Source of the DNA: an uncultured Thermoplasmata archaeon
GTDB taxonomy: Archaea > Thermoplasmatota > Thermoplasmata > Lutacidiplasmatales > UBA184
Length of the DNA: 64,000 bases
Direction of reading: 5' to 3'
Assembly: GCA_963797975.1 (NCBI GenBank)
Contig: CAWCRH010000006.1
Coordinates: forward strand, 10,754 to 74,753
In this document: positions 12,005 to 63,480 of the stretch, piece after piece
Position numbering within the stretch: the stretch's first letter is position 1
Layout of the letters: each line of letters opens with the position of its first letter
Position numbers and translations under genes: made by a program
The notes under the pieces: generated by a model
What the model was told of the DNA's origin: nothing
The model's database searches: none
Seen by the model: only the letters and a program-made list of their open reading frames with translations

Positions 12005-12268
12005 ATGCAGCTCGGCCGGCTCCTCACCATCATCAATTTCGTCCTTCTCGGCACCGCGATCGCGGTCTACCTCTACCTTCCGTCCGTCGCCGACATCTTC
12101 TTGTACGTTCTGCTGGCGTGGATGTTCGGGAGCATCGTGCTGTTCTACCTCCCCATCTCTCAACGGCGGATCGGCAGTGGTGCGGCGCCTCCTCCGGCCA
12201 CCAGTGCCGCCTCGGCCGGGCCGGGGGAGGAGCCGCGCTCGCCTCGGTCGGACCCGTCGGAGCGATGA
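12005..12268 (+). CDS. small hypothetical membrane protein (2 TM)
   Basis: Two hydrophobic helices (LLTIINFVLLGTAIAVYLYL and FLYVLLAWMFGSIVLFYL). The stop overlaps the next start (ATGA). Confidence 0.3.
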   Translation: MQLGRLLTIINFVLLGTAIAVYLYLPSVADIFLYVLLAWMFGSIVLFYLPISQRRIGSGAAPPPATSAASAGPGEEPRSPRSDPSER

Positions 12269-12399: not shown

Positions 12400-12720
12400 T
12401 TGGGGCGGCGACGGAGCTTTGGAGAGTACCCCTTCGTAGCGGTCGCCGCGCTCGTCGGCGCGCTCACGGTAGGCCTCATCGTACTCGGGCTCGAGTTGAA
12501 GTGGGGGATCTTCTCCTACGTCCTCGTCGTGATCCCCATCGCGGTCGCCGCTGCGTATCTGGTCAGCTATGCACGCGTCGCCCCGCCCCCCGTCGTCGCG
12601 CCGCCTCCATCCCCGGCCGCATCTCCGACGACGGACGAGGAAGAACCGTTCATCGACCCGGTCGAGGAGGCGGACCGGATCGCGAGCGGGGAGACCCTTC
12701 CACCTCCGCCCTCGGATTAG
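12400..12720 (+). CDS. small hypothetical membrane protein (2 TM, acidic C-terminus)
   Basis: Two hydrophobic helices, then a Pro-rich segment and an acidic tail DEEEPFIDPVEEADRIASGE. Confidence 0.3.
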   Translation: MGRRRSFGEYPFVAVAALVGALTVGLIVLGLELKWGIFSYVLVVIPIAVAAAYLVSYARVAPPPVVAPPPSPAASPTTDEEEPFIDPVEEADRIASGETLPPPPSD

Positions 12721-13316
12721 TCCGGCGCGATCCGGACCATCGCTTCGTGGGCGCGAACGTTCGAACCGGCGCCCACCGTGATCTGGAGGACCCGGCCGGC
12801 GACCGGGCTCGCGATCTCGTTCCGCATCTTCATCGCCTCGAGGACGAGGAGAACCTGGTCTTTCGCCACGTGGTCGCCCACGCGGACTTTCACCTCGATG
12901 ATCTTGCCGGGCATGGGAGGAACCACCGCGGTCCCCGCCCCTCCTTCTTCGCTCGGTCGTTCCTTGGGGGTCGCCGGGATCACGATCGTCGCAGCCGGCC
13001 TCATGGTGGCCGGTCGGGAAGCTCCGACCTCCGCGCGGACCTCGCTCAGTCGCCACCGTTCCCCGTTCACATCGACCGGTCCCGGCGGCTCCGCGAGCCC
13101 CTTCGGCCACCCCTCGACGACGACCTTCTCGCCGCCGACCTCGAGCTCGATACGGTCGGGAGCCTCGGCGACGACCGTGTACGGGTAGCGGTGCTCCCCG
13201 ACCACCACTGTAGATCCGGCGAGGTCGACCTCGACCGATTCCCGCTTACCGTCGCGAACGATGCTGAGCCGCATCGACCCACCTCCGTTGGCCGAGGAGC
13301 CGGGCACGCCCTTCAT
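12717..13316 (-). CDS. biotin carboxyl carrier protein / biotinyl subunit (1.3S-like), possibly the C-terminal part of the upstream carboxyltransferase
   Basis: Canonical biotinylation motif EAMKM inside a biotinyl-domain sequence ([35 protein letters not shown]). The 130-aa N-terminal region resembles an OadA-type association/linker region. It overlaps the upstream ORF by 70 nt in another frame. Confidence 0.8.
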
Positions 13317-14782
13317 GCGCCCAGGGATTGACCGACCCTGCGTCGGCGGCGCGTGGGGCCGACGCCGATCGCGCGGCGGATTCGCGGGGCGCGCGTAGCG
13401 CTCCCACGATCCCGAGCGCCGCGCTCGTCAGGACCTCGTCCTTGAGCCCCTGGTCGAGGGCCGCACGATAGGAGCGGTAGACCTGAGGGAAGACCGCGTA
13501 GGAGAGGACCTCGGCGTCGTCCGCCGCTGGAACGAGCTGACGGACCTCCATGAGCCGCTTTTCGAACTCGGGCGGCAACAGGTCCGCCGGGCGGCCGGTG
13601 ATCGCGGGCTCGTCGCGAGTGACCTTCGCGCGGAGCACCGGATCGAGCGGGCCGGGTGGGCTCCCGTAAAGCCCGCGCACGTAGTCGCGGACCTCCCGAG
13701 TGATCGTGGCATAGCGCGTCCCGGCTAGCACGTTCATGACGGCTTGGATCCCCACGATCTGGCTGGTCGGCGTGACGAGCGGCGGGTAACCGAGGTCGGC
13801 CCGTACGCGCGGGATCTCTTCGAAGACCTCCTGCAGGCGGTCGAGGGCCTCCTGCTCTTCGAGCTGGCTCAGCAGGTTCGAGAGCATGCCGCCGGGGACC
13901 TGGTGGAGCAGGATCTGGGGGTCGGTCTGCAGGGCTCGGATATTGAGCAGGCCGCGGTAATGCTCCAGGACACGGCGGAAGTGTTCCGATATCTCCGCCA
14001 AGGCCCCGAGGTCGAGCTTCGGGTCGTGGTCGGTCCCGCGCCAGGCGCCGACCAGCGCTTCGGTCGGTGGCTGGGAGGACCCACCGGCGAACGGGCTCAG
14101 GGCGCTGTCGACCGCGGTCGCCCCAGCCTCGACGCACGCGAGGCAGGTGAGCGCCGACATTCCGCTCGACGAGTGAGTGTGGACGACCACGGGCAGTCCG
14201 ACCTCTTTGACCAGCACACGGACCAGCCGGGCGCCTTGATCCGGGGGCATGAAACCGCCCATGTCCTTGACACACAGCTCGTCCGAGCCGAGTTCGGCGA
14301 GCCGTCGACCGAGCCGAACGAACGAGCGCTAGGTCATGCACCGGCGACTGCGTGTAGCAGATCGTTCCCTGGGCGATCCCGCCGGCCTTCTTGACCGCGT
14401 CCAGTGCGACCTCCATGTTCCTCGGGTCGTTGAGCGCGTCGAAGACGCGGAAGATCGTGATTCCCTGACGGGCCGACTCCTGGACGAAGCGACGGACGAC
14501 GTCGTCCGGGTAGTGGCGATAGCCGACCAGGTTCTGCCCGCGCAAGAGCATCTGAAGAGGGGTGTTCGGCATCGCCCGCTTGAGCAGGCGCAGTCGCTCC
14601 CACGGGTCCTCTCGTAGGAACCGTAGGCACACATCGAACGTCGCACCACCCCAGACCTCGAGAGAGCGGTAGCCGATGGCATCCAGTTGCTCCGCCACCG
14701 GGAGCATGTCCTTCGTGCGCATCCGCGTCGCGATGAGCGATTGATGACCGTCGCGAAGGACCGTCTCGGTGATCTCGACCAT
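13246..14782 (-). CDS. pyruvate carboxylase subunit B / oxaloacetate decarboxylase alpha-like carboxyltransferase (5S-type), frameshifted
   Basis: The N-terminal 157 aa ([47 protein letters not shown]) lie in one frame. The continuation ([47 protein letters not shown]) lies in a +1 frame from about 14335. The shift is a single extra nucleotide near 14322-14336. Confidence 0.8.
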
Positions 14783-14804
14783 GGAGCCCGACCGTTCGGA
14801 GACC

Positions 14805-16352
14805 TTACAGTGGAATGTTCCCGTGCTTCTTCGCCGGCCGGTCCTCTCGCTTCGAGCTCAAGATCGCGAGGCCGGCGACCAGGCGTGGCCGCGTCTCGGC
14901 CGGGTCGATGACATCGTCGATGTAGCCCCGCTCCGCGGCCAGGTACGGATTCATGAACTGGGTTCGGTACTCCTCGACGGGCCCGTGGTTGCCGGCGCGG
15001 TTACCCGAGCTCCCTTCGCCGGAGCTTCGGAACAGGATCTTGACAGCGCCCTCGGCGCCCATGACGGCGATCTCGGCGCTGGGCCACGCGAAGTTGAGGT
15101 CCCCTCCGAGGTGCTTCGAGCACATCACGTCGTAGGCTCCGCCATAGGCCTTACGGAGGATGACCGTCAGCATCGGGACCGTCGCCTCGGCGTAGGCGTA
15201 CAGGAGCTTGGCACCGTGGCGAATGATCCCGCCGTGCTCCTGCGCGGTGCCCGGCAGGAAGCCGGGGACGTCCACCAGCGTGATGAGCGGAACGTTGAAC
15301 GCGTCGCACGTTCGGACGAATCGGGCCGCCTTCGTCGACGCGAGGATGTCGAGCGTACCGGCGAGCTGAGCCGGGTTGTTCGCGACTAGGCCAACCGCCC
15401 GGCCATCAAGCCGCGCCAATCCGACCACGATGTTTGGGGCCCAGGCGGCGTGGACCTCCAGGAAGGAGGCGGGGTCGACCACGCGGTCGACCACGGAGCG
15501 GACGTCATACGGCGCGTTCGTGTCGTCCGGGACGACCGTCCTCAGCTCGACCGCAGCCGACGCGGGCGGGGCGACCGCGGCCGAGACGGGGGGTTCCTCG
15601 AGGTTGTTGAGAGGAAGGTAACCCAGCAGCCGTCGCGCGAGCTCGAGCGCCTTCGCGTCGTTCTCGGCCGTGAAGTGCGAGACCCCGCTCGTCCCTGCGT
15701 GAGCGTCCGCGCCTCCGAGCTCCTCCAACGATACGGTCTCACCGGTCACTTCCTTCACTACGTCCGGGCCGGTAATGAACATCTGCGAGGTCCCTCGCGC
15801 CATGATGACGAAGTCGGTGATCGCGGGCGAGTAGACGGCGCCCCCGGCGCACGGCCCCAGGACGAGCGAGATCTGCGGGACGACACCGGAGAGGTTCACG
15901 TTCCGTAGGAAGACGTCCCCGTAGCCGCCGAGGCTCACCACCCCCTCCTGGATCCGAGCGCCTCCGGAGTCGTTGAGCCCGACCATGGGGACCCCGGCCT
16001 TTCGGGCGAGCTCCATGACCTTCACGATCTTAGTCGCGTGCGCTTCTCCCAGGGCTCCGCCGAAGACGGTCGCATCTTGGGCAAAAGCGCAGACCGGCCG
16101 CCCCTCGACCTCGCCCCAGCCGCAGACGACGCCATCTCCTCGGACGCGTCGCTCGTCCATGCCGAACCCGGTCGCACGATGGGTGACGAACCGGTCAGTC
16201 TCGTTGAACGTACCGGGGTCGAAGAAGGTCTCCAACCGTTCGCGGGCGGTCATCTTCCCGGCCGCGTGCTGTTTGGCGACCCGCTCCGGACCGCCCCCTT
16301 CCTTCGTCGCGCGCTTCAGAACGTCCCATCGGTCAAACGCTCGACTCATCAC
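14805..16352 (-). CDS. acyl-CoA carboxylase carboxyltransferase subunit (propionyl-CoA carboxylase beta / methylmalonyl-CoA carboxyltransferase 12S-like)
   Basis: 515 aa, colinear with the PccB/MmdA family ([52 protein letters not shown]). Confidence 0.9.
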
Positions 16353-17107
16353 TCTACCTCCACGTCGCCCGTTCTTATCGCTACTCGTTCATAGGCCCGA
16401 ACGAGCCAGAGCTCGCCTTCCTCGCCCAGGGTATCGAGAACGCCGGCGGGCACCCCGTCGACTTTGACCGAGTGACCGACCCCGTAGAGGGCCGCTCGGC
16501 ACTCATCGAGAACGGTCCGTGCCTCGCTCGGAGAACGCAGTCGCTCCCCCGCGCGGAGCGCCGCATGGACGATCCATTCCTCGACGGCCTCCAACGCGGG
16601 CGGAGGACGGACCCAGTCCTCAAGGGCCGCGATTCGGCTCTTCAGCTCTGGCGGAGAGGCGCCGCTCGAGGTCCGCACGTTCACCCCGACCCCGACCACT
16701 TCGGCGATCCCCAAGGACGGCGATTCCACCTCGTCAATCAAGATCCCGGAGATCTTTCGTGGGGGAGATGGACCGTCCAGCATGAGCAGGTCGTTCGGCC
16801 ATTTGAGCACCGGGTCTAGCCCCGTCCGGGCACGGAGGGTCGTCCGAAGCTCGGACCCAACGGCGAGGGCGAGGAGCGTCCGGGGTGCGGGGGGAGCTCG
16901 CACCACGATGGAGAGATAGACACCGGCTCCGGCGGGGGACCACCAGCCGTGGTCGAGCCGACCTCGGCCGAGCCGCTGCGTGCGGGCGACGACGAGGGTC
17001 CCTTCAGCCGCTCCCGACCGCGCCAGCTCGATCGCCCGGTCCTGGGTCGAATCGACGACCTCGTAGAACTCGCGAGGACCCACGATGGCTCCTCCGCTCC
17101 GTGGCAA
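16349..17107 (-). CDS. birA: biotin-[acetyl-CoA-carboxylase] ligase (biotin protein ligase BirA-type, no HTH domain)
   Basis: GRGRLDHGWWSPAGAGVYLS matches the BPL GRGRxxxxWxSPxGxGLxxS biotin-binding motif. 4-nt overlap with the carboxyltransferase gene. Confidence 0.8.
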   Translation of the reverse strand: MPRSGGAIVGPREFYEVVDSTQDRAIELARSGAAEGTLVVARTQRLGRGRLDHGWWSPAGAGVYLSIVVRAPPAPRTLLALAVGSELRTTLRARTGLDPVLKWPNDLLMLDGPSPPRKISGILIDEVESPSLGIAEVVGVGVNVRTSSGASPPELKSRIAALEDWVRPPPALEAVEEWIVHAALRAGERLRSPSEARTVLDECRAALYGVGHSVKVDGVPAGVLDTLGEEGELWLVRAYERVAIRTGDVEVE

Positions 17108-17217
17108 CGCGGACGCGGCATAACTGTTTAAGGTCCGGGCCGGGACCTTATCCTCCCCCTACACTCGGGTCGTCCGTGAGCGAGACAGCGAGCCCGGTCG
17201 CGGCGACCCTCAAGAAG

Positions 17218-17544
17218 ATGGCTCCGGACCTCGAGCGAGAGATTGCGCCGCGACTCCAAGGCTTCATGGGCGCGATCATGCGCTCCTACCTCCCTCAGAC
17301 ATGGGTTTTGCGCACCGAGTCGGAGACCGTGAGCCTAACAGTGGACCGCCAGGGAAAGGCGACGGTGACGCCTAAAGCGCTCCCCGATCCCGATGTGACC
17401 ATCGAAGCCAAACAAGCAACCATGCTGACGTCCCTTTCGCAGGGGTCGAAGACGAAGGCCCGAACGAGCGACTTTCACGTGACGATGCACACGAGCAAGG
17501 GCAAGACCGCTTTCGAATTCCTCCGTACGCGCTTCGGATTCTGA
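17218..17544 (+). CDS. small hypothetical protein, weakly SCP2/sterol-carrier-like
   Basis: About 108 aa from an internal Met of ORF 16885..17544. The C-terminal half (PDVTIEAKQATMLTSLSQGSKTK...GKTAFEFL) loosely resembles SCP2 domains. The upstream part of the ORF is Arg-rich antisense-like sequence. Confidence 0.25.
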   Translation: MAPDLEREIAPRLQGFMGAIMRSYLPQTWVLRTESETVSLTVDRQGKATVTPKALPDPDVTIEAKQATMLTSLSQGSKTKARTSDFHVTMHTSKGKTAFEFLRTRFGF

Positions 17545-17637: not shown

Positions 17638-17655
17638 CATTCATAGTCGAAAACC

Positions 17656-18966
17656 ATGCCGTTCCAGTCCGATATATGGACCGCGACCCGTGGAGCGTTC
17701 GTGAGCGGCAACCTGGCGAACGGCGCGAAGGCCCCGGACGCAGCGAACGCACCGACGAATGGAACCACTCCCGCACCGCTCCCCACCCTGCATCGCCGAC
17801 GTTCTATGGCCCCGGTCATCGCGATCGTGGTCGTGCTCGTCATCGTAGCTGCGGGGATAGGAATCGGGTACCAACAGCACTGGTTCGGAGGGGGCGGCGG
17901 GTCCGGCACTCACGCCGGCACCTGTCCCATGGGCGTCACGCTCGCCGGCAACGGAGCACAGTTCGTGAACCCGCTCGTGAGCCAGTGGGCGGCGAGCTAC
18001 TCCTCCCAGACGCAGAATGTCGTGAACTATGTGGACGGCGGGTCGGGCGCGGGCATAACGGACCTCGAGGACACGACGGTCGATTTCGCGGTCACCGATG
18101 ACCCGCTATCGCCCTCCGAGACCGCCGCGATGCCGGGGACCACCCTGACCTTGCCCGTGACGGGAGGGGCGCTCGCGATCCTGTACAATCTCCCCGGCGT
18201 CCCGGGTCACCTCAACCTCTCCGGGGCGGTCCTAGCCGACATTTACCTCGGCAAGATCACCCAGTGGAACGACCCCGCCATCCAAGACAACAACACGGGG
18301 CTCTCGCTTCCGGCCCAGACGATCCAGACGGTCCACCGCTCGGACGCCGCGGGCACGACGTTCGTCCTGACCAACCTGTTGTCGGACGACAGCATAGCCT
18401 GGCATCAGGGCCCCGGCACAGGGATCTCGATCTCTTGGCCCTCGAACCCTCCAGAGTCGGAGGCGATCAAGGGGAACTCAGCGCTGCTGAGCTACGTCCA
18501 AACCACCCACTACACCATCGGCTACTCGGACCTCACGGATGTCCTCACGGCCTCCTCCCCTGTCCAGTACGCCGCCGTCCAGAATCCGACGGGCAACTGG
18601 ATCGTCCCGACGCTCGCCAACACCGCTTCCGCGCTCTGGGATGCCGTGAACACTACCACGTTCCCGACCTCGGCCGGCAACTGGTACGCGGTCAGCGCTG
18701 TCAATGCCCCGGGGGCCACGGACTACCCGCTGGCGACCTTCGCTTACCTGTTCGTCTTCCAGAACGCGAATGTAGGTTTCGAGCCGAGCCTCCAGAAGAC
18801 CCAGGTGCTGAACCAGTGGCTCGCGTGGATCCTGAGCACGGGGCAGACGGAATCGAGCGGACCGAATCTCTACTACGTGGCCCTTCCTCCCACGCTCGTT
18901 AGCATCGACCAGGCCGGGATCCAGACCATCACGTATGGAGGAACGGCGGTCCCTGCCTGCACGTGA
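17656..18966 (+). CDS. pstS: phosphate ABC transporter substrate-binding protein PstS
   Basis: PstS-like sequence with an N-terminal signal-anchor (HRRRSMAPVIAIVVVLVIVAAGIGIG). The probable true start is Met at 17806. Many N-x-S/T sequons. Confidence 0.85.
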   Translation: MPFQSDIWTATRGAFVSGNLANGAKAPDAANAPTNGTTPAPLPTLHRRRSMAPVIAIVVVLVIVAAGIGIGYQQHWFGGGGGSGTHAGTCPMGVTLAGNGAQFVNPLVSQWAASYSSQTQNVVNYVDGGSGAGITDLEDTTVDFAVTDDPLSPSETAAMPGTTLTLPVTGGALAILYNLPGVPGHLNLSGAVLADIYLGKITQWNDPAIQDNNTGLSLPAQTIQTVHRSDAAGTTFVLTNLLSDDSIAWHQGPGTGISISWPSNPPESEAIKGNSALLSYVQTTHYTIGYSDLTDVLTASSPVQYAAVQNPTGNWIVPTLANTASALWDAVNTTTFPTSAGNWYAVSAVNAPGATDYPLATFAYLFVFQNANVGFEPSLQKTQVLNQWLAWILSTGQTESSGPNLYYVALPPTLVSIDQAGIQTITYGGTAVPACT

Positions 18967-19945
18967 GGGCGCGGTAGAGGGTCCCCCTCCCGGGTCGGCA
19001 GCGGTGGCGACCGGACCGAGACGGGACCGGCGCATCCAGCGGCTGGGGGCGTTCGACCGCCTGTTCCACACGGTCACCGGGCTGGTGGCCGCCGGGATTC
19101 TCCTCCTGATCGCGGCCATCTCCCTCGTCCTGGTCACCCAGGCGTACCCATCGATCGTTCACTTCGGGCCCGGGTTCCTTCTCTCCTCCTCGTGGGACAG
19201 CGTCCACAGCAACTTCGGAGCGTTGCCCGCCATCGTGGGTACTCTCGTGACGAGCGTGATCGCGCTCGTGATCGCGGTCCCCATAGCGCTCGGCGCCGCG
19301 ATGTTCATGTCCGACCTTGGCCCCCGGCGCCTGAGGGAGCCGCTCACCTACATCATCGACCTCTCCGCGGCCGTCCCCTCGGTCGTATTCGGGTTCTGGG
19401 CGTTCATCGTCGTGGTCCCGTGGATGCGATCGACCGCGGAACCGGACCTCGCCTGGCTCACGGGGGGCCGCTTTCCCTTCGGCGGACCTCCCCTCGGCCT
19501 CGACATCCTCACCGCCTCGATCGTACTCGCCATCATGATCATCCCGACGGTTGCCGCGCTCTCCCGCGAAGCGCTGCGCGCGGTACCGGCTTCCCAGCGG
19601 GACTCGGCCTTGAGCCTCGGGATGACCCGGTGGGATGCGCTGCGCATCGCGGGCCTACGCCCGGCGGCCCCCGGGATAGCGGCCGCCATCGTCCTCGGAC
19701 TCGGCCGAGCCCTGGGCGAGACGATCGCCGTCCTGATGGTGATCGGCAACATCTACCAGCTCCCGACCTCGCTATTCTCCCCGGGGACCACGCTGGCGAG
19801 CTGGATCGCGAACGACTTCACTGCGGTCGGCCCCGGTCTCGAGATGAACGCCCTCCTCGAGCTCGGAGTGGTCCTGCTGGTCGTCACTGTGGTCGTGAAC
19901 GTGATCGCGCGTTTGTTCTTCCGGCGCATCGCGAAGCTCCCCCGA
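18935..19945 (+). CDS. pstC: phosphate ABC transporter permease PstC (continues in frame into pstA with no stop)
   Basis: PstC motifs (IIPTVAALSREALRAVP, LGRALGETIAVLMVIGN). After about residue 335 the same reading frame continues through a Pro/Ala linker into PstA-like sequence. The boundary coordinate is approximate. Confidence 0.7.
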
Positions 19946-20969
19946 AACGGCGACGAGGCCACTCTCGGCGACGCCGAAGCGACCTCCGCGTCGGAGGTCC
20001 CGAGCCCGAACGTCGCCCCCATCTCCCCGAGGCTGCAGGCCCTCGCCGCCCTCCCGCCCCCGCCCCCTCACAGCGCGCCGTGGCGGGCGCGTCGCCTCGA
20101 ACGCAGACGTTGGGTCTACTACATCGCGATCGGCCTGGTCAGCCTCGCCATCGTGCTCGCGCTCGTGCCGCTCGTGGACGTCACGTACATCGCGGCCGAG
20201 CGCGGCGGTTCGGCCGTCATCCAGCCGTCGTTCTACACGTCGGTCCCGCCGATCGGATGTAATCCGGGCCACGGCGTGAACTGCTCTCTGGGCGGGATCG
20301 GTCCGGAGATCCAAGGGACACTCATCATGCTCGGGCTCGGCGCGGCGATCGCGCTCCCGGTCGGGATCTTCAGCCGGGATCTACCTCGCCGAATACGGGA
20401 GAGGTCGGTTCGCGAGGGCGGTCGACTTCGTCGTGGACGTGATGACGGGGATCCCGACCATCTTGCTCGGCGTCTTCGTGTTCGTCGTGTTCCTGCGGCT
20501 GGACCACAACGCGGCCTTGAGCGCGCTCTCGGGCTCGGTCGGGCTCGCCATCCTGATGATCCCGATCGTCGTGCGCGGGACGGTCGAGGCCCTGAGGACC
20601 GTTCCCCGTGAGGTCCGAGAGGCCGCGGCAGCTCTGGGCTTTCCGCGCTACCGGACGAACTTACGGGTCGCGTTGAGTTGCGCTCGAGGAGAGCTGGTCA
20701 CGGGTGCGTTGCTCGCCGCCGCCCGCGCCGCCGGGGATACCGCCATCCTGCTCGTGACCGCGGGGGGGAGTATCCTTTGGTTCCAGGGACTGAACTCTCA
20801 GACCGCGGCGATCACGCCGTTCATCTTCAGTAACTTCCAGTCGGAGTACACCAATCTGCAGACCGATGCTTGGGGCGCGGCCCTGGTCCTCCTCATTATC
20901 ATGCTCGCGATCAACCTGGGGGCCCGCCTCGCGACACGCTCCCACGTCGTGATCGCGGAGCCCGGGTGA
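19946..20969 (+). CDS. pstA: phosphate ABC transporter permease PstA, frameshifted
   Basis: The PstA N-terminus (RRRWVYYIAIGLVSLAIVLALVPLVDV...LPVGIFS) is in the pstC frame. The C-terminus (GIYLAEYGRGRFARAVDFVVDVMTGIPTILLGVF...) is in the frame of ORF 20433..20969. A single extra C at about 20372-20378 (agCCggg) separates them. Confidence 0.7.
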
Positions 20970-20971
20970 CC

Positions 20972-21724
20972 ATGACCACCAAGATGGAGACCGTCTCGCT
21001 GAACGCGGGATTCGGGAACAAGTGGGTGCTCCACGACGTGAGCCTGGCCATCCCCGAACACGCGGTGACCGCGATCATCGGCCCGTCCGGGTGCGGAAAG
21101 ACGACGATCCTACGCTGCCTCAACCGGCTGCACGAGGAGACACCTCAGGCCCGTCGCACCGGCCAGGTGCTCTTAGACGGCCGGAACATCGACCATCAGG
21201 ACGTCACCAGCGTTCGATGCCGGGTGGGCATGGTCTTCCAGCGCCCGACGCCTTTCCCGCACATGTCGATCTACAACAACGTGGCGGCGGGGCCCCGACT
21301 CCTCGGCGTGCCGCCAGGCCCGATACGCGACCGGGCGGTCGTTTCTGCCCTCGTACAGGCCGGTCTCTTTGAGGAGGTCGCCGAGAACATCGACGCGCTG
21401 GGCACGAGCCTCTCGGGGGGCCAGCAGCAGCGACTGTGCATAGCGCGAGCCCTCGCGGTCGAGCCCGAGGTCCTCCTCATGGACGAACCGTGCTCAGCGC
21501 TCGACCCGCTCTCGACCGAGCGGATCGAGAGCCTGATCGCACACCTCAAGGAGCGCTACACCCTCGTGGTCGTCACGCACAACCTGGCCCAGGCCAAGCG
21601 CATCGCCGACCGGACCGCGTTCTTCCACCTGGGCCGATTGGTCGAGGTGGGGACGACCCGCAAGATCTTCGAAGAACCGAAGGAGACACTCACCGCGAAC
21701 TACGTTAGCGGCCGGTTCGGCTGA
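20972..21724 (+). CDS. pstB: phosphate ABC transporter ATP-binding protein PstB
   Basis: Walker A GPSGCGKTT, signature LSGGQQQRL, Walker B LLMDEPCSALD. Start chosen at MTTKMETV immediately after the pstA stop. Confidence 0.9.
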   Translation: MTTKMETVSLNAGFGNKWVLHDVSLAIPEHAVTAIIGPSGCGKTTILRCLNRLHEETPQARRTGQVLLDGRNIDHQDVTSVRCRVGMVFQRPTPFPHMSIYNNVAAGPRLLGVPPGPIRDRAVVSALVQAGLFEEVAENIDALGTSLSGGQQQRLCIARALAVEPEVLLMDEPCSALDPLSTERIESLIAHLKERYTLVVVTHNLAQAKRIADRTAFFHLGRLVEVGTTRKIFEEPKETLTANYVSGRFG

Positions 21725-21838
21725 GACTCGGACGTCGGTCCGCCCATGTCGGTGCTGTTTCTGCATGCACTGGGGACAAGCGCCCGCAGCTTTCGGGCTA
21801 AATACTCCCCCCGGGCTGGTCCGGTCCGAGGAGAAGGA

Positions 21839-22570
21839 ATGGACCCAGTCGATCAGGCGCGCGAGTGGTCCCAGGTCCTTGAGGGAGAGGGGCCGCCGCG
21901 CGTGGTCCGATGGTCGGTCGAGACGTTCGGGCCGAAGCTCGCGATCGGATCGAGCTTCGGGCGCGACGGGTTGGTCGTCCTCGACCTGGCACGGCAACTC
22001 GCTCCGGCCATCCCCGTCCTCTTCCTCGAGACGGGCTACCACTTCCCCGAGACCTTACGGTTCCGTGACGAGCTCAAAGCGAGGTGGGATCTGCGGGTCG
22101 TCGACGTTCGCCCAGAGCTTTCGGTCGCGGAGCAGGATGCGCGCTACGGCCCCGAGCTCTACGCGCGCGACCCGGACGCCTGCTGCGCGATGCGAAAGGT
22201 CGCCCCACTTCAGAAGGCGCTCCAACCGTACTCCGCGTGGATGACCGGCGTGCGTCGCGACCAGCACGCGGGGCGCGCCGAGACGCCGGTAGTGGAGTGG
22301 CAGGAGCTCGCGGGAGGCCACGGCGTTTACAAGATCAACCCGATGGTGGCGTGGTCGCGGTCCGACGTGGATGACTACGTGCGCGACCACCAGCTCCCGG
22401 CCCATCCCCTCTGGGCGAAAGGGTACCCCAGTGTAGGCTGCGCCCCGTGCACCTCCCAGGTCCGTCCGGGAGCCTCGGAGCGGTCCGGTCGCTGGGTGAC
22501 GAGCGGAAAGACCGAGTGTGGAATCAATGTCGTGGGCGTTCATCGCCCTCCGGCTTCCGGAGCGCCCTGA
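21839..22570 (+). CDS. cysH: adenylyl-sulfate / phosphoadenylyl-sulfate reductase (thioredoxin-dependent CysH family, Fe-S type)
   Basis: PAPS-reductase fold motifs (SSFGRDGLVVLDL), a CC pair (DACCAMRKV), and the C-terminal ECGI plus CxxC-like GCAPC typical of APS-reductase-type CysH. Internal Met chosen as start. Confidence 0.8.
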   Translation: MDPVDQAREWSQVLEGEGPPRVVRWSVETFGPKLAIGSSFGRDGLVVLDLARQLAPAIPVLFLETGYHFPETLRFRDELKARWDLRVVDVRPELSVAEQDARYGPELYARDPDACCAMRKVAPLQKALQPYSAWMTGVRRDQHAGRAETPVVEWQELAGGHGVYKINPMVAWSRSDVDDYVRDHQLPAHPLWAKGYPSVGCAPCTSQVRPGASERSGRWVTSGKTECGINVVGVHRPPASGAP

Positions 22571-22571
22571 G

Positions 22572-23735
22572 ATGCTTCCCGAGGCCTACGGCGGCCGGCT
22601 CGTGGACCGGCAGCTCCCGGAAAGAGAGCGGGACCGCCGAGAAGCCGAACTCCCCGCTCTTCCCCAGCTTCGGCCCGAGATCGACCTCGTCTACGACGCG
22701 GAGAAGATCGGGATCGGGGCGTACAGTCCGCTCGAAGGGTTCATGGATTCCGCGACCTTGGACTCGGTGCTGCGCCGCGGACGCCTACCGAGCGGCCTTC
22801 CCTGGTCGATGCCGATCCACTTCGCCCCCGGCGGCGCTGAGAACGCCGCCCTCGTCGATCGCGTCCGTGTCGGGGACGCGGTAGCGATCCTGGACGGCGG
22901 TAGCCGCCCGGTCGCCGTCTTGCACGTGGAGGAGAAGTATCGGATCGACCGAGGCGCGATCGCGCGGTCGACCTACGGGACCGACGACCCGAAGCACCCG
23001 AACGTTGCGGACCTCTTCGCCGGGGGCGAGGTCGCCCTCGCCGGAAAGGTCGACCTCCTACGGCGCCTCGCGCTACCGGCCGGTCGGTTCGAGCTGACGC
23101 CGGCGGAGACCCGGGAGGAATTCGCGCGCCGGGGTTGGTCCAACGTCGCCGCGTACCAGTGCCGCAATCCCCCACACACCGCCCACGAGTACCTCCAGCG
23201 GACCACGCTCGAGCGGGAAGAGGTCGATGGTCTCTTCGTCCATCCGGTCGTCGGGCGGCTCAAGCATGGGGATTACCGCCCGGACGTGATCATGCGGGCG
23301 TACGAGGCGCTGCTCGAGCACTACTACCCGAAGGAGCGCGTGCTCCTGAGCGCTCTCTCGATCACGATGCGCTACGGCGGCCCGAAGGCGACGCTCTTTC
23401 TCGCGATCGTCCGACGGAACTATGGATGCGCGTCGTACATCGTAGGACGGGACCAGGCCGGGGTGGGCAACTATTACGAGCCCTACGCCTGCCAACGCAT
23501 CTTTGATGAGTTCGATATCGGCGTCCGGCCGCTCCGCTACGCGGAATCGTTCTACTGCCGCGCGTGCGCCGGCATGGCGAGCGCCCGGACCTGTGCCCAC
23601 CCGGTGAGCGAGCGGATCGCCACGAGCCAGAGCGCGATCCGCCAGGCCCTCGCTTCGGGGGCGCCGATCCCCGCGGACGTGCTTCGGCCCGAGGTCGCCG
23701 CCATCCTCCGAGGGCCGAACGTCCTGGAGGAGTGA
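22572..23735 (+). CDS. sat: sulfate adenylyltransferase (ATP sulfurylase)
   Basis: QCRNPPHTAHE (QTRN-type motif), GRDQAGVG (GRDHAG motif), and HPVVG. The start is placed immediately after the cysH stop. Confidence 0.85.
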   Translation: MLPEAYGGRLVDRQLPERERDRREAELPALPQLRPEIDLVYDAEKIGIGAYSPLEGFMDSATLDSVLRRGRLPSGLPWSMPIHFAPGGAENAALVDRVRVGDAVAILDGGSRPVAVLHVEEKYRIDRGAIARSTYGTDDPKHPNVADLFAGGEVALAGKVDLLRRLALPAGRFELTPAETREEFARRGWSNVAAYQCRNPPHTAHEYLQRTTLEREEVDGLFVHPVVGRLKHGDYRPDVIMRAYEALLEHYYPKERVLLSALSITMRYGGPKATLFLAIVRRNYGCASYIVGRDQAGVGNYYEPYACQRIFDEFDIGVRPLRYAESFYCRACAGMASARTCAHPVSERIATSQSAIRQALASGAPIPADVLRPEVAAILRGPNVLEE

Positions 23736-23742
23736 ACGACCG

Positions 23743-24288
23743 ATGCCGACGACCGCGCCCGGGTTCTGTCTATGGCTCACCGGCCTACCGAGCTCCGGCA
23801 AGACCACGATCGCACGGGAGCTCGCCCCGCTGCTTCGAGAGCGAGGCTGGCCCGTGGAGCTCTTGGACGGGGACGAGATCCGTAAAGGCCTGAGCTCCGA
23901 CCTTGGGTTCGACCGCGCTTCGAGGGAGTCGCACGCGCGGCGCGTCACCTACGTCGCGAAGGTCCTGGTCCGAGCGGGGGCGGTGCCGATCGTCGCTCTC
24001 ATCAGCCCGTACCGGGTCTCGCGCGAGTACGCCCGCCGGGAGATCGGCCGGTTCGTCGAGGTCTACGTGAACACGCCGATCGATGTCTGCGAGTCCCGTG
24101 ACGTGAAGGGGCTGTACCGCCGGGCCCGAGCCGGCGAGATCCGAGAAATGACCGGGGTCGACGACCCGTATGAACCGCCCGAGGCCGCGGAGATCGTCGT
24201 CGACACCGTCGACCGCCCTCCGGCCGAGGCCGCCGTGGGGATCCTTCGGGACCTCGACCGGGACGGCTGGCTCGCCCGCCCCCGGTAA
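23743..24288 (+). CDS. cysC: adenylyl-sulfate kinase
   Basis: P-loop GLPSSGKTT and the typical APS kinase length and sequence (ISPYR, VYVNTPIDVCESRDVKGLY). Confidence 0.85.
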   Translation: MPTTAPGFCLWLTGLPSSGKTTIARELAPLLRERGWPVELLDGDEIRKGLSSDLGFDRASRESHARRVTYVAKVLVRAGAVPIVALISPYRVSREYARREIGRFVEVYVNTPIDVCESRDVKGLYRRARAGEIREMTGVDDPYEPPEAAEIVVDTVDRPPAEAAVGILRDLDRDGWLARPR

Positions 24289-24812: not shown

Positions 24813-25707
<895 letters not shown>

Positions 25708-25729
<22 letters not shown>

Positions 25730-26436
25730 GCCCGCCGGATCGCTTCCCCCGTCAAGAACGGCCAGCCGTGGTCTTGGGCGTACTTACGCGCCGCGGCCGG
25801 CGAACGGGCCCCTCCGGAGTCCCCGAGCATCTCGCAGACCGTGACGGACTCGCTGAGGTGGGCCATCCGGGCGAGCGAGATGGTGAGCTCCGTATGGCCC
25901 TTTCGCTCGCTGAGGAGACCCCCCGCCGCGTAGATCAACGGCACGTGTCCTGGGCTGACGAAGGAGGAGGTGAATCGCGTGCGGAGGCTCGCGGCGTCCA
26001 CGCGGCGGACGCTCGCGGCGATCTCACCGACGGTACGGATCGTCAACGCTCGCTCATTGTCCGAGACACCGGTATAGTTCTCTCGGTGGTTGATGGTGAT
26101 CCCGAACGCGCTTCGGCGGTCGTAGCGGGGCCGGTCGGTGAGCGCTCCGAGGATCGGGTAGGCCGGTCGCGCGACGTTCAGAAGTTCATGAGCGAAGGGG
26201 AGCCCGAGCTCGGTGCGGAGCTCGTCGGATATCGCCGTGCAGATGAGGCCGCCGGCGTCCCGGCGTTGGAGGTGGACGAGTTCGGGAGTGGCCCTTTCGC
26301 TGAGGAATACGAGGTCGGTCTCTCCTTCACGTTCGGGGGCGTCGTAGACGAGGGCGGGCTCCCCCGCGGCCAGCGCGCGCACCGCCCGCTCGATCTCGGT
26401 GTCCTCAAGCTCGGCAGGGCGCGAAGCCGCCATCAT
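25708..26436 (-). CDS. ribB: 3,4-dihydroxy-2-butanone 4-phosphate synthase
   Basis: DHBP synthase motifs (ALVYDAPEREGETDLVF, GLICTAISDEL, RTVGEIAASV). Confidence 0.85.
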
Positions 26437-26454
26437 CGATCGCGTCGACCTTTT

Positions 26455-26470
26455 CAGAGTTAATAAGTAA
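26455..26470 (-). promoter_or_regulatory. AT-rich TATA-like element (TTTACTTATTAA on the minus strand) about 25-35 nt upstream of the ribB ATG
   Basis: The only AT-rich patch in an otherwise GC-rich intergenic region. Its spacing suggests a leaderless or short-leader ribB transcript. The same T-rich tract lies just 3' of the 16S gene and could act as its terminator. Confidence 0.3.
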
Positions 26471-26582: not shown

Positions 26583-28052
<1,470 letters not shown>

Positions 28053-33959: not shown

Positions 33960-33971
33960 ATTCGGTCCCTC

Positions 33972-49013: not shown

Positions 49014-50726
49014 GTGACCATGGCTTTGAGCCGTAGTCGGGGGGTCGCACACTCAACCCCTCCCGCCTCCGACCCCGTGGCGGAGGCCCAGACCCGCTGG
49101 GAAGCGGAAGTGCTCGCTCCGGCGCTCGCGAAGAGCCCGGAACGCCAGGACCGGTTCACGACGATGGGCGGGATCCCCGTCGACCGCCTCTACACTCCGC
49201 GATCCTCGCCGCGCGACCCGGCCCGCCTCCCGCCTCCCGGACAGTACCCGTACACTCGAGGCATCCATCCGACGATGTACCACGGGCGGGTCTGGTCGAT
49301 GCGCATGTTCTCTGGCTTCGGCACGCCGGAGGACACGAACCGTCGCTTCCGCTACCTCCTCGCCCACGGAGAGTCCGGCCTGTCCATCGCCTTTGACGAC
49401 CCCACGCTCTATGGAATCGACGCGGACGACCCCGAAGCGCTCGGCGAGGTCGGAAAGTGCGGCGTCAACGTCAGCTCGCTCGACGATATGCGACGCCTGC
49501 TAAGGGGGATCCCGCTCGACCAGGTCACGACCAGCATGACCATCAACGCCCCGGCGAACGCGGTCTGGGGCATGTACATCCTCGCGGCCGAGGCGATGGA
49601 TATCGCGCCGGCGCAACTAGGCGGGACGACGCAGAACGACATCCTGAAGGAGTACATCGCGCAGAAGGAGTTCCTCTATCCTCCGCGGCCGGCGCTGCGT
49701 CTCGTCGTCGATACGATCGAGTACGCCACGCGACACCTTCCCCGCTGGAACCCGGTCTCGATCTCGGGCTATCACATCCGAGAGGCGGGCTCGACGGCGG
49801 TCCAGGAGCTCGCCTTCACGCTGGCGGATGGAATGGCCTACGTTGAGGCGACCATCGAGCGAGGGGTCCCCGTGGACGATTTCGCCCCGCGACTTTCCTT
49901 CTTCTTCAACTCGCACAACGACTTCTTCGAGGAGATCGCGAAATTCCGCGCGGCGCGCCGGATCTGGGCTCGGGCGATGCGGGAGCGGTTCGGCGCTCGG
50001 AAGGAGCGTTCGCTGTTGATGCGCTTTCATACCCAGACGGCCGGCTGCTCGTGCACCGCCCAGCAGCCCGAGCTCAACATCGTCCGCACGACGATCCAGG
50101 CGCTGGCCGGGGTGATCGGGGGGACCCAATCGCTCCACACCAACTCCTACGACGAGGCGCTCCAGCTCCCGAGCGAGGACGCCGTTCGGATCGCGCTGCG
50201 CACCCAGCAGATCCTGGCCCACGAGTCCGGGGTCACGCGCGCGATCGACCCGTTCGGGGGCAGCTACTACGTCGAATGGCTCACGGACCGCATGGAGGAG
50301 GAGGCCGAGCGCTATTTTGACCGCATCGCGGAGATGGGCGGGGTCGTCCCCGCGATCGAGCGCGGTTTCTTCCAGCGAGAGATCCAGGAGGCCTCGTTCC
50401 GCTACCAACGCGCCGTCGACCGGGGCGAGACGAAGGTCGTCGGGGTGAACGCCTACACGGTCGATCAACCGGTGAAGGTTCCGCGTCTCAAGATTTCGGA
50501 ACAGGCCCGCCGCGATCAGTCCCGGCGCCTTCGGATCCTGCGGGAACGGAGGTCGACCGCACGACACACCCACGCGCTCGCCGCGCTCCGCCGGGTCGCG
50601 GCCACCGAAGGCGAGAACACCATGCCCGCCGTGCTCGACGCGCTGCGCGCGCGAGCGACGCTCGGCGAGATCGCCCGCGCGCTCCAAGAGGTCTATGGGA
50701 GCTATCGGGAGCGCTCGACGTACTAG
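49014..50726 (+). CDS. mcmA: methylmalonyl-CoA mutase, large (catalytic, N-terminal domain) subunit
   Basis: 570 aa, colinear with the MCM catalytic domain (PYTRGIHPTMYHGRVWSMRMFSGFGTPEDTNRRFRYLL, GLSIAFDDPTLYG). No B12-binding domain, as in archaeal split MCM. Confidence 0.9.
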   Translation: MTMALSRSRGVAHSTPPASDPVAEAQTRWEAEVLAPALAKSPERQDRFTTMGGIPVDRLYTPRSSPRDPARLPPPGQYPYTRGIHPTMYHGRVWSMRMFSGFGTPEDTNRRFRYLLAHGESGLSIAFDDPTLYGIDADDPEALGEVGKCGVNVSSLDDMRRLLRGIPLDQVTTSMTINAPANAVWGMYILAAEAMDIAPAQLGGTTQNDILKEYIAQKEFLYPPRPALRLVVDTIEYATRHLPRWNPVSISGYHIREAGSTAVQELAFTLADGMAYVEATIERGVPVDDFAPRLSFFFNSHNDFFEEIAKFRAARRIWARAMRERFGARKERSLLMRFHTQTAGCSCTAQQPELNIVRTTIQALAGVIGGTQSLHTNSYDEALQLPSEDAVRIALRTQQILAHESGVTRAIDPFGGSYYVEWLTDRMEEEAERYFDRIAEMGGVVPAIERGFFQREIQEASFRYQRAVDRGETKVVGVNAYTVDQPVKVPRLKISEQARRDQSRRLRILRERRSTARHTHALAALRRVAATEGENTMPAVLDALRARATLGEIARALQEVYGSYRERSTY

Positions 50727-63479: not shown

Positions 63480-63480
63480 T

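What the first reader, a model, noticed from the sequence alone, without database searches (positions are those of the whole stretch)
12717..17107. Transcarboxylase-like biotin enzyme cluster (12S + 5S + 1.3S-like + BirA) with no biotin carboxylase or Na+-pump subunit
Four consecutive minus-strand genes are present: a PccB-like acyl-CoA carboxyltransferase (12S type), an OadA/PycB-like pyruvate/oxaloacetate carboxyltransferase (5S type), a biotinyl carrier with the EAMKM motif, and a biotin protein ligase. They overlap or abut one another, so they are probably co-transcribed. This subunit combination is that of methylmalonyl-CoA:pyruvate transcarboxylase (EC 2.1.3.1). No AccC/PycA biotin carboxylase and no membrane beta subunit (OadB/MmdB) is seen in the 64-kb window. 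A methylmalonyl-CoA mutase catalytic subunit lies 33 kb away. A transcarboxylase in an archaeon of this type would suggest a propionate/succinate-type fermentation or a carboxyl-shuttling anaplerotic route that is rarely described in archaea.
Basis: partly seen in the sequence, partly recalled or inferred. Interest (0 to 1): 0.6.

Follow-up and report, generated by a model that had tools for sequence, protein, structure and literature searches.

The report
Archaeal transcarboxylase-like biotin enzyme operon
A soil Thermoplasmata archaeon carries a conserved four-gene operon (biotin ligase, two different carboxyltransferases, one biotin carrier) that most likely moves a carboxyl group between methylmalonyl-CoA and pyruvate without using ATP, whereas a published reconstruction of the order read the first carboxyltransferase as propionyl-CoA carboxylase.

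Summary
On the minus strand lie a BirA-like ligase (16349-17083/17107), a 12S/PccB-type carboxyltransferase (14805-16349), a 5S/PycB/OadA-type carboxyltransferase (13246-14782) and a 185-aa biotin carrier (12717-13274). The genes overlap or sit 22 nt apart.

The 5S gene has one extra base (C14326). RpoA', AlaRS and a Pst permease in the same window are also frame-broken, and more than 120 relatives have an intact gene, so this is almost certainly an assembly error. 5S and carrier are separate genes.

The same operon occurs in at least 20 Thermoplasmata, including Lutacidiplasmatales, never with a biotin carboxylase or a membrane beta subunit within 6-10 kb. Other Thermoplasmata put a biotin carboxylase, or a delta plus beta pump subunit, in the slot that 5S holds here.

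The carrier has a BT-like beta domain as in PCC alpha. The 5S C-terminal tail resembles the tail of those biotin carboxylases.

Best reading: a methylmalonyl-CoA:pyruvate transcarboxylase (confidence about 0.6), probably feeding propionyl-CoA to succinyl-CoA. Genome-wide absence of a biotin carboxylase could not be tested, and there is no biochemistry. Asgard archaea offer a genomic precedent, so this is a new variant of a known kind.

The parts
16349..17107 (-). Biotin-protein ligase (group I BirA type, no HTH domain). The likely start is GTG 17083 (244 aa).
   Evidence: PF03099 42.5 bits and TIGR00121 99.9 bits, above the 83.1 cutoff. GGAGGAG lies 6 nt before GTG 17083. The L001 orthologue is 244 aa. 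This is the first gene of the cluster in all type A loci that have sequence upstream of the 12S gene.
14805..16352 (-). 12S / PccB / MmdA-type acyl-CoA carboxyltransferase (514-515 aa). The start overlaps the BirA stop.
   Evidence: PF01039 645 bits over the full length. TIGR01117 mmdA 763 bits, below the 999 cutoff. PDB scores: PccB 1vrg 674 bits, 1xnv 672, P. shermanii 12S 1on3 601. 'GGAYDVM' keeps Asp at the position of S. coelicolor PccB D422. The type A 12S proteins form their own clade in an NJ tree.
13246..14782 (-). 5S / PycB / OadA-type pyruvate-oxaloacetate carboxyltransferase without a fused biotinyl domain. It is 511 aa after removal of the extra base C14326. It carries a conserved C-terminal tail (about aa 448-511).
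   Evidence: The N part matches NF006761 at 298 bits and the C part at 332 bits, with PF02436 at 179 bits. More than 120 intact homologues at 100% coverage lack PF00364. LRDGHQS, KDM, HTHS and VTPTSQIVG align with the equivalent motifs of TC 5S 1rqb. The tail is conserved. It resembles the tail of type B biotin carboxylases.
14324..14329 (-). Site of the +1 insertion (C14326) that splits the 5S reading frame. It is probably a sequencing or assembly error.
   Evidence: DNA alignment with L001, L003 and L004 shows one extra base. RpoA' is split over three frames. AlaRS and the Pst permease are each split over two frames in the same window. Long-read relatives L002, L018 and L086 have frame breaks at other places in this cluster.
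12717..13274 (-). Biotin carboxyl carrier subunit (185 aa). It has an N-terminal BT-like all-beta domain (aa 1-82), a flexible linker (83-112) and a biotinyl domain with EAMKM (113-185; the lysine is K149).
   Evidence: PF00364 66.5 bits. GGAGGTG precedes ATG 13274. The AF2 model has mean pLDDT 77.5, and the biotinyl domain is 90 or above in each 10-residue block. Foldseek finds full-length matches to the BT+BCCP part of PCC alpha (6ybq_I, E=3e-9), and to MCC alpha and yeast ACC BT-BCCP. phmmer aligns aa 14-180 to human PCC alpha 552-725.
17122..17133 (-). AT-rich TTAAACAGTTAT patch upstream of BirA. It is a candidate archaeal TATA-like promoter element for the operon. This is inferred only.
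   Evidence: Read directly in a 67% G+C context, about 40-50 nt upstream of GTG 17083. It was not tested.
49014..50726 (+). Methylmalonyl-CoA mutase large (catalytic) subunit. It is a pathway partner and not part of the operon.
   Evidence: PF01642 716.6 bits.

Best explanation
The four genes form one operon that encodes an ATP-independent methylmalonyl-CoA:pyruvate carboxyltransferase (a transcarboxylase, EC 2.1.3.1-like) together with its own biotin ligase.

Proposed mechanism (inferred unless marked as shown):
1. BirA biotinylates K149 of the carrier.
2. The carrier's N-terminal BT-like beta domain anchors it on a PccB-like 12S core. Its 30-residue linker lets the biotinyl domain swing.
3. 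The 12S sites exchange a carboxyl group between (S)-methylmalonyl-CoA/propionyl-CoA and biotin.
4. The metal-dependent 5S TIM-barrel sites exchange it between biotin and pyruvate/oxaloacetate.
5. The 5S is held in the complex by its C-terminal helix-linker-'WAHEGR..QRRW' tail. This tail is the counterpart of the tail that tethers the biotin carboxylase in the PCC-type operons of other Thermoplasmata.

In this aerobic or facultative peptide- and fatty-acid-degrading lineage, the likely physiological direction is propionyl-CoA + oxaloacetate -> methylmalonyl-CoA + pyruvate. That feeds the epimerase and mutase route to succinyl-CoA and saves the ATP that a propionyl-CoA carboxylase would cost.

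Shown here: gene content, order, conservation, catalytic motifs, the BT-like fold prediction and the tail similarity.
Inferred: complex assembly, reaction, direction, and absence of a biotin carboxylase in the genome.
For: 1. The subunit set and catalytic motifs are intact.
2. The operon BirA-12S-5S-carrier is conserved, with translational-coupling overlaps, in L001-L019, L032, L084-L086 and the window. No biotin carboxylase appears in tblastn over +-6-10 kb. No biotin carboxylase or OAD_beta domain appears among the called genes of the six loci that carry Pfam calls.
3. Other Thermoplasmata with a related 12S (60-65% identity) place the functional partner in the operon. Seven loci have a biotin carboxylase between 12S and carrier (type B). 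Two loci have delta, carrier and a 565-aa OadB/MmdB-like beta (type C). By the same logic, the partner here is the 5S.
4. All listed 5S homologues lack a fused biotinyl domain, and there is one separate carrier, as in transcarboxylase.
5. The 5S tail matches the type B biotin carboxylase tail. hhalign score is 23.6, P=3.2e-4, over 55 collinear columns. None of 200 column shuffles reached it (null 10.5 +- 2.4). The type B tail in turn matches the C-terminus of the type C delta subunit (score 26.9, P=4.8e-5, 0 of 100 shuffles). This suggests one docking slot used by three alternative partners.
6. No type B-family biotin carboxylase (65% identity or more) lies on any of at least 23 type A contigs of 100 kb or more. 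These include contigs of 2.16, 1.66 and 1.22 Mb. The comparison is by longest-contig length.
7. The published KO table gives the Lutacidiplasmatales ancestor pccB=1, bccA (K11263)=0, MCC alpha (K01968)=0, MCEE=1 and mcmA1=1 (PMC9287336).
8. The mutase and SdhAB are in the same window.
9. The same gene set was read as a transcarboxylase in Asgard archaea (PMC7015854).
Against: - There is no enzymology.
- Genome-wide absence of a biotin carboxylase (accC, pycA, K01959, K01961, K01964, K01965) or of oadB could not be tested. The biotin carboxylase list is truncated at 65% identity, so a divergent or PycA-type enzyme would be missed.
- The 5S is more similar to two-subunit pyruvate carboxylase beta (5ks8, 520 bits) and OadA (482) than to the P. 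shermanii 5S (430).
- Among the top 50 Foldseek hits that span more than the biotinyl domain, the carrier has its highest sequence identity (32%) to the C-terminal part of that same pyruvate carboxylase beta. That enzyme works with a separate biotin carboxylase subunit.
- The 12S is slightly closer to PccB than to the P. shermanii 12S.
- In some archaea, biotin carboxylase genes are unlinked from carboxyltransferase genes (general knowledge).
- The direct similarity between the 5S tail and the delta subunit is weak (P=0.03).
Confidence: 0.6

Rival explanations
1. These are ordinary ATP-dependent carboxylases. The 12S would be the beta subunit of a propionyl-CoA (acyl-CoA) carboxylase and the 5S the carboxyltransferase of a two-subunit pyruvate carboxylase. 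Both would share the operon's carrier and be served by a biotin carboxylase (AccC/PycA) encoded elsewhere in the genome.
For: Databases name the homologues 'pyruvate carboxylase subunit B'. The Lutacidiplasmatales paper uses pccB as a marker of propionyl-CoA carboxylase. The best PDB matches are PccB and two-subunit pyruvate carboxylase beta. The carrier resembles the BT-like+BCCP end of that pyruvate carboxylase beta (32% identity). Genome-wide absence of a biotin carboxylase was not testable here.
Against: No biotin carboxylase lies within +-6-10 kb in at least 20 type A loci. The seven Thermoplasmata loci that do have one place it inside the operon. No isolate appears in both lists. No type B-like biotin carboxylase lies on more than 12 Mb of type A contigs. 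K11263 and K01968 are absent in the Lutacidiplasmatales ancestor. The 5S carries the tail that the biotin carboxylase carries in type B, which suggests it occupies the same docking position.
Confidence: 0.25
2. This is the soluble head of a Na+-translocating decarboxylase (methylmalonyl-CoA and/or oxaloacetate decarboxylase), with membrane beta and delta/gamma subunits encoded elsewhere.
For: TIGR01117 mmdA is the best NCBIfam match of the 12S (763 bits). JGI names many carrier homologues 'glutaconyl-CoA/methylmalonyl-CoA decarboxylase subunit gamma'. OadA is the second-best PDB match of the 5S.
Against: The mmdA score is below the family cutoff of 999. No OAD_beta was found in the window. None appears among the called genes of the six type A loci with Pfam calls. 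Thermoplasmata that do have a beta subunit encode it, with a delta anchor, next to MmdA and the carrier (L027, L040). Known pumps use one carboxyltransferase, not two. The lineage is described as aerobic or facultative (PMC9287336).
Confidence: 0.05
3. In this particular genome the cluster is decaying. The 5S frameshift would be real, so only the 12S, the carrier and BirA remain functional.
For: The window sequence as given has a +1 insertion that truncates the 5S after residue 152, upstream of the KDM lysine and the HTH histidines.
Against: Essential single-copy genes in the same 64 kb are frame-broken in the same way: RpoA' twice, AlaRS and the Pst permease. G+C at the third codon position stays at about 0.84 in the downstream 5S frame. 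The downstream sequence is 92% identical in protein to an intact orthologue. Other long-read relatives show breaks at different sites in this cluster.
Confidence: 0.07

Closest known systems
Methylmalonyl-CoA carboxyltransferase (transcarboxylase, EC 2.1.3.1) of Propionibacterium freudenreichii subsp. shermanii: 12S + 5S + 1.3S
   Same: It has the same three component types and no biotin carboxylase. The 12S is a full-length match (601 bits to 1on3). The 5S matches 1rqb at 430 bits with the metal-ligand and substrate motifs aligned. The 5S has no fused carrier. There is a separate small biotinyl subunit with the MKM motif, whose N-terminus starts with two short beta strands like the 1.3S (the 1.3S sequence is recalled from memory).
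   Different: Neither carboxyltransferase is closest to the P. shermanii subunits; PccB and PycB/OadA score higher. The carrier is 185 aa with a complete BT-like beta domain of about 80 aa, instead of the short N-terminal peptide of the 123-aa 1.3S. The 5S has a conserved basic tail of about 60 aa that does not align to 1rqb. A biotin ligase is part of the operon. The host is archaeal.
Transcarboxylase-like gene set inferred in Asgard archaea (Imachi et al. 2020, PMC7015854)
   Same: An MmdA-like carboxyltransferase, a PycB-like carboxyltransferase, a carrier and a 'transcarboxylase-associated biotin ligase' were read as methylmalonyl-CoA transcarboxylase for propionate metabolism.
   Different: That case is in a different phylum and was proposed for anaerobic fermentation. 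I did not compare the sequences or the operon structure, so orthology is untested.
Thermoplasmata PCC-type operon BirA-PccB-AccC-carrier ('type B': L020-L024, L026, L029)
   Same: The 12S family is the same (60-65% identity). BirA is upstream in some loci. The carrier has an N-terminal beta-rich extension. The upstream gene has a C-terminal tail of helix, linker and W..GR...RRW that overlaps or precedes the carrier gene.
   Different: The middle gene is an ATP-grasp biotin carboxylase (510 aa) instead of a 5S carboxyltransferase. The type A 12S proteins form a separate clade.
Two-subunit pyruvate carboxylase PycA/PycB (Methylobacillus flagellatus, PDB 5ks8; also the methanogen type)
   Same: It is the best PDB match of the 5S (520 bits, residues 2-449). 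Among the top 50 Foldseek hits that span more than the biotinyl domain, the carrier's highest identity is to its C-terminal BT-like+BCCP part (32%).
   Different: Here the carboxyltransferase and the BT-BCCP are separate genes. No PycA is adjacent. A PccB-type carboxyltransferase sits in the same operon.
Na+-translocating methylmalonyl-CoA / oxaloacetate decarboxylases (MmdABCD(E), OadABG) and the Thermoplasmata 'type C' operons (L027, L040)
   Same: They share an MmdA-like carboxyltransferase and a small carrier. The delta subunit's C-terminus resembles the type B biotin carboxylase tail.
   Different: There is no beta or delta gene in the window or among the called genes of the type A loci with Pfam calls. 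A second, pyruvate-type carboxyltransferase is present.

Membership tests
Transcarboxylase (EC 2.1.3.1) | 12S-type acyl-CoA carboxyltransferase subunit (two crotonase-like domains, Carboxyl_trans) | tested here: met
   PF01039 645 bits over 1-493/493. 601 bits to the P. shermanii 12S 1on3. Asp at the PccB D422-equivalent position.
Transcarboxylase (EC 2.1.3.1) | 5S-type pyruvate/oxaloacetate carboxyltransferase with metal ligands and no fused biotinyl domain | tested here: met
   HMGL-like and PYC_OADA domains, with no PF00364 in any of the 120 listed homologues. The D, K and HxH motifs align with 1rqb. One extra base must be removed from the window copy.
Transcarboxylase (EC 2.1.3.1) | Separate small biotinyl carrier subunit (1.3S type) encoded with the two carboxyltransferases | tested here: met
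   A 185-aa protein with EAMKM, with its own Shine-Dalgarno sequence and ATG. It is larger than the 1.3S and has a BT-like domain.
Transcarboxylase (EC 2.1.3.1) | No biotin carboxylase component; the reaction is ATP-independent | tested here: inconclusive
   Absent from the 64-kb window and from +-6-10 kb in at least 20 loci. No type B-like biotin carboxylase lies on large type A contigs. Whole genomes could not be searched, and activity is not testable here.
Transcarboxylase (EC 2.1.3.1) | Orthology to the characterised P. shermanii subunits | tested here: not met
   By bit score the 12S is nearer to PccB (672-674 against 601). The 5S is nearer to PycB/OadA (520/482 against 430). I therefore file it as 'works like', not as an orthologue.
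Propionyl-CoA / acyl-CoA carboxylase (PccA/PccB) | Biotin carboxylase-containing alpha subunit (ATP-grasp) that partners the beta subunit | tested here: inconclusive
   None in the operon, the window or the related loci. It is present in the operon of type B Thermoplasmata. K11263 is absent in the Lutacidiplasmatales ancestor. Other KOs and whole genomes were not checked.
Propionyl-CoA / acyl-CoA carboxylase (PccA/PccB) | BT domain linking the carrier to the beta-subunit core | tested here: met
   The AF2 model of the carrier matches the BT+BCCP of PCC alpha over its full length (E=3e-9). The sequence aligns to PCC alpha 552-725. This rests on a prediction, not a solved structure.
Two-subunit pyruvate carboxylase (PycA/PycB) | PycB = carboxyltransferase fused to BCCP, partnered by a PycA biotin carboxylase | tested here: not met
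   Carboxyltransferase and carrier are separate genes in all relatives. No PycA is adjacent. NF006761 matches only as split pieces, each below its 402-bit cutoff.
Na+-translocating decarboxylases (Mmd/Oad/Gcd) | Integral membrane beta subunit (OAD_beta) and a small membrane anchor (delta/gamma) | tested here: not met
   None in the window or among the called genes of the six type A loci with Pfam calls. Both are present in the operon of type C loci L027 and L040. Whole genomes were not searched.

The most novel reading that the evidence does not exclude
Thermoplasmatota build three different biotin enzymes on one common platform, a PccB-type 12S core plus a BT-BCCP carrier. They do so by exchanging the gene in one operon slot. 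In that slot sit an ATP-grasp biotin carboxylase (giving a carboxylase), a membrane delta/beta pair (giving a Na+ pump) or a PycB-type 5S (giving a transcarboxylase). Each partner carries a homologous C-terminal helix-linker-'W..GR' docking tail that would complete the split BT domain. On this reading the Lutacidiplasmatales enzyme is a transcarboxylase that arose independently of the propionibacterial one. Propionyl-CoA assimilation in these abundant acid-soil archaea would then be ATP-independent, not PCC-dependent as published.
Probability: 0.35. Interest if true: 0.65.

Novelty: new variant of a known kind. Interest (0 to 1): 0.5.

Why it matters
If the reading is right, a widespread group of acid-soil archaea (Lutacidiplasmatales and related Thermoplasmata) carboxylates propionyl-CoA by borrowing the carboxyl group of oxaloacetate instead of spending ATP. 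That is the trick known from propionibacteria and syntrophic propionate oxidisers.

This would correct current annotations ('pyruvate carboxylase subunit B', 'propionyl-CoA carboxylase beta') and the published pathway reconstruction.

The comparison of three operon types also suggests a simple evolutionary route between carboxylase, decarboxylase pump and transcarboxylase: swap the partner that plugs into a split BT domain. That route can be tested by structure determination and pull-downs.

Tried and rejected
- Exact look-ups of the window's 12S (515-aa and 514-aa versions) and of the carrier in the contig index found nothing. The source contig of 573,943 bp is known only.
- The genome-contig scan did not contain the window's own species; the best hit was 81% identical.
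- Literature searches for transcarboxylase with Thermoplasmata, and for biotin carboxylase with Thermoplasmatales, gave no relevant metabolic claim.
- The KO look-up in the Lutacidiplasmatales supplement found only K01966, K11263 and K01968. K01959/60/61/64/65 and K03416 are not in the stored table.
- Using contig lengths to look for a biotin carboxylase on type A contigs was negative but is of low power, because the list is cut at 65% identity.
- hhalign of the 5S tail against a mixed delta / MGII small-protein alignment was not significant (E=0.3). Only the type B tail against the L027/L040 delta is significant.
- Sequence search of the type B biotin carboxylase against the PDB does not extend into the tail, so homology of the tail to the PCC BT helix is untested.
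- Bit-score 'phylogeny' against PDB references does not discriminate TC, PCC and Mmd for the 12S.
- I considered a fused 5S-BCCP polypeptide and rejected it. The 5S tail is conserved in its own frame to its stop, and the carrier has its own Shine-Dalgarno sequence and ATG.
- Pfam found nothing for the conserved small flanking ORFs.

Full report
**What is there**

The window is archaeal, about 67% G+C. It has a lone 16S rRNA gene at 26583-28050 with no 23S gene beside it.

Between 12717 and 17107 on the minus strand lie four genes:
- A group I biotin-protein ligase (TIGR00121, 99.9 bits).
- A PccB/MmdA/12S-type carboxyltransferase (PF01039, 645 bits, full length).
- An OadA/PycB/5S-type carboxyltransferase (HMGL-like + PYC_OADA).
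- A biotinyl carrier with EAMKM.

Reading the junctions gives the following:
- BirA most likely starts at GTG 17083, after GGAGGAG.
- The 12S ATG at 16349 overlaps the BirA stop as TGATG, after GGAGGT.
- A 22-nt spacer separates the 12S from the 5S.
- The carrier ATG at 13274 follows GGAGGTG and lies 29 nt inside the 5S 3' end.

This arrangement is typical of a co-translated operon.

**The frameshift**

The 5S is split between two frames by a single extra base, C14326. This shows in a DNA alignment with three relatives. After correction the protein is 511 aa. It aligns end to end with more than 120 intact homologues of 504-519 aa at 72-92% identity.

The same window has other frame-broken genes:
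- RpoA' is split over three frames.
- AlaRS is split over two frames.
- A Pst permease is split over two frames.

Long-read relatives carry breaks at other positions in this very cluster (L002, L018, L086). I therefore treat the frameshift as an assembly error and not as a pseudogene.

The odd-looking Arg-rich 5S C-terminus is real. It is conserved in all relatives (..[19 protein letters not shown]). So 5S and carrier are two polypeptides.

**Whose genome**

All close homologues come from 'Thermoplasmata archaeon' MAGs, many of them from soil. One, AcS5-107 (L017), is a Lutacidiplasmatales (o__UBA184) genome from acidic Scottish soil. That order is described with about 68-69% G+C, about 2.1 Mb, and aerobic or facultative organoheterotrophy on peptides, sugars and fatty acids (PMC9287336).

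The window's species is not in the species-representative set; the best 12S identity there is 81%. An identical carrier protein sits on a 573,943-bp contig.

**Comparative context, the main evidence**

I also read the gene calls for six loci. Three operon types appear around related 12S genes.

- Type A: BirA-12S-5S-carrier. It occurs in the window and in L001-L019, L032 and L084-L086. The 12S identity is 71-92%. There is never a biotin carboxylase within 6-10 kb.
- Type B: (BirA)-12S-AccC-carrier. It occurs in seven other Thermoplasmata, with 12S identity of 60-65%.
- Type C: MmdA, a small membrane delta, the carrier and a 565-aa OadB/MmdB-like beta. It occurs in L027 and L040. MGII/Poseidoniales loci have MmdA, a small protein and the carrier.

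So in this phylum the functional partner of the 12S and carrier is encoded in the operon. In type A that partner is a pyruvate-type carboxyltransferase.

In an NJ tree the type A 12S proteins form a clade of their own. No isolate appears in both the type A and type B lists.

**Catalytic competence**

- The 12S keeps 'GGAYDVM'. The Asp sits at the position of S. coelicolor PccB D422, the residue reported to favour propionyl-CoA over acetyl-CoA (alignment; the role of D422 is from my own knowledge).
- The 5S keeps LRDGHQS, KDM, HTHS and VTPTSQIVG. These align with the metal-ligand and substrate motifs of TC 5S (1rqb), OadA (2nx9) and pyruvate carboxylase beta (5ks8).
- The carrier lysine in EAMKM is invariant in 63 homologues.

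**Architecture**

An AlphaFold2 model of the carrier, built from a 63-sequence alignment, has three parts:
- An all-beta N-terminal domain (aa 1-82, pLDDT 75-84).
- A disordered 30-residue linker.
- A confident biotinyl domain.

The best Foldseek matches in the PDB cover the whole chain. They are the BT+BCCP portions of PCC alpha (6ybq_I, E=3e-9; human 7ybu), MCC alpha and yeast ACC. phmmer aligns aa 14-180 to human PCC alpha 552-725. The carrier is therefore a BT-BCCP protein, much larger than the propionibacterial 1.3S.

The 5S tail has no counterpart in the PDB alignments, which end at about residue 450. AF2 predicts it as helix 448-463, a disordered stretch and then helix 488-504, at low confidence.

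The tail is significantly similar to the C-terminal tail of the type B biotin carboxylases:
- The comparison used 119 against 106 sequences.
- hhalign score is 23.6, P=3.2e-4, over 55 collinear columns.
- 200 column shuffles gave 10.5 +- 2.4 with a maximum of 18.4.

The type B tail in turn matches the C-terminus of the type C delta subunit: score 26.9, P=4.8e-5, against a null of 7.8 +- 1.65. The direct comparison of the 5S tail with delta is weak (P=0.03).

My inference is that the tail plus the carrier's beta domain form a split BT domain. That domain would tether whichever partner is present (biotin carboxylase, membrane anchor or 5S) to the 12S core. This is a hypothesis and has not been shown.

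**Interpretation**

The most economical reading is an ATP-independent methylmalonyl-CoA:pyruvate transcarboxylase.

In a lineage with a TCA cycle, beta-oxidation and peptide use, the likely role is propionyl-CoA + oxaloacetate -> (S)-methylmalonyl-CoA + pyruvate. The epimerase and the mutase would follow, leading to succinyl-CoA. The mutase large subunit is at 49014-50726 and SdhAB at 61788-64000 in this window.

[quoted passage not shown] Its own table scores the biotin carboxylase-containing bccA (K11263) and MCC alpha (K01968) as absent in the order's ancestor. This fits a transcarboxylase better than a PCC. Other biotin carboxylase KOs are not in that table.

**What weakens the reading**

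- I could not search whole genomes for a biotin carboxylase or an OadB.
- The indirect test asked whether any type B-family biotin carboxylase shares a contig length with the at least 23 type A contigs of 100 kb or more. The largest are 2.16, 1.66 and 1.22 Mb. The result was negative, but the list stops at 65% identity.
- By similarity the 5S and the carrier look like a split two-subunit pyruvate carboxylase beta (5ks8: 520 bits, and 32% identity for the carrier part). That enzyme uses a separate biotin carboxylase.
- The 12S is marginally nearer to PccB than to the P. shermanii 12S.

For these reasons the cluster 'works like' a transcarboxylase, but it is not shown to be an orthologue of the classical one.

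**Novelty**

A transcarboxylase gene set (MmdA-like, PycB-like, carrier and associated biotin ligase) has already been proposed from genomes of Asgard archaea (PMC7015854). I found no paper that makes this call for Thermoplasmata.

The new points here are:
- Conservation of the operon across soil Thermoplasmata.
- The BT-BCCP carrier.
- The shared docking tail.
- The three interchangeable operon types.

I rate it a new variant of a known kind, of moderate interest.

Noticed in passing
window 31179-33971 (-); 54234-56811 (+); 18836-20969 (+): Essential genes are frame-broken. RpoA' is spread over three reading frames, and AlaRS and the Pst permease over two each. This points to an indel-prone (probably long-read) assembly, so any apparent pseudogene in this window should be distrusted.
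   Followed up: partly
L020-L024, L026, L029 (type B); L027, L040 (type C): The C-terminal tail of the Thermoplasmata biotin carboxylase (..EERVAAIAAAL..W.LAGR..RRRW) is significantly similar to the C-terminus of the small membrane delta subunit of the Mmd-type operons (..VAAIAAAIYSH..W.TAGR.D.M). hhalign gives P=4.8e-5, and 0 of 100 shuffles reached the score. This may be a portable docking element.
   Followed up: partly
window 26583-28050 (-): A complete archaeal 16S rRNA gene stands alone, with no 23S or tRNA nearby. It lies next to the riboflavin genes (DHBP synthase 25708-26580, RibL-like 25283-25783). Unlinked rRNA genes fit Thermoplasmata.
   Followed up: no
window 17647-24288 (+) compared with L003, L084, L086: In relatives the riboflavin genes lie directly upstream of the BirA operon. 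In the window (and in L001) a block is inserted between them. It holds phosphate ABC transport (PstS and the permease/ATPase) and sulfate assimilation (PAPS reductase, ATP sulfurylase, APS kinase).
   Followed up: no
window 17218-17544 (+); 12400-12720 (+); 12005-12268 (+): Three small ORFs flank the operon on the opposite strand. One is divergent from BirA and two are convergent on the carrier gene. ORFs of similar size sit at the same positions and orientation in related loci (L001, L003, L084). They have no Pfam match. The two downstream ones look membrane-associated, and the L001 counterpart of one has a weak zinc-ribbon hit.
   Followed up: partly
window 39283-40536 (+): An IS-type transposase (DUF772 + DDE_Tnp_1) lies in a stretch of slightly lower G+C, between the RNA polymerase genes and a pro-kumamolisin-like protease (42998-44995).
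   Followed up: no
L036, L046, L050, L061 (Poseidoniales / MGII): Marine Group II loci have MmdA, a small soluble-looking protein ending ..AWAQDHR..RKRSTWR, the carrier and a small Cys-rich protein. No beta subunit or biotin carboxylase is adjacent. This is a fourth operon variant, and its partner is unknown.
   Followed up: no
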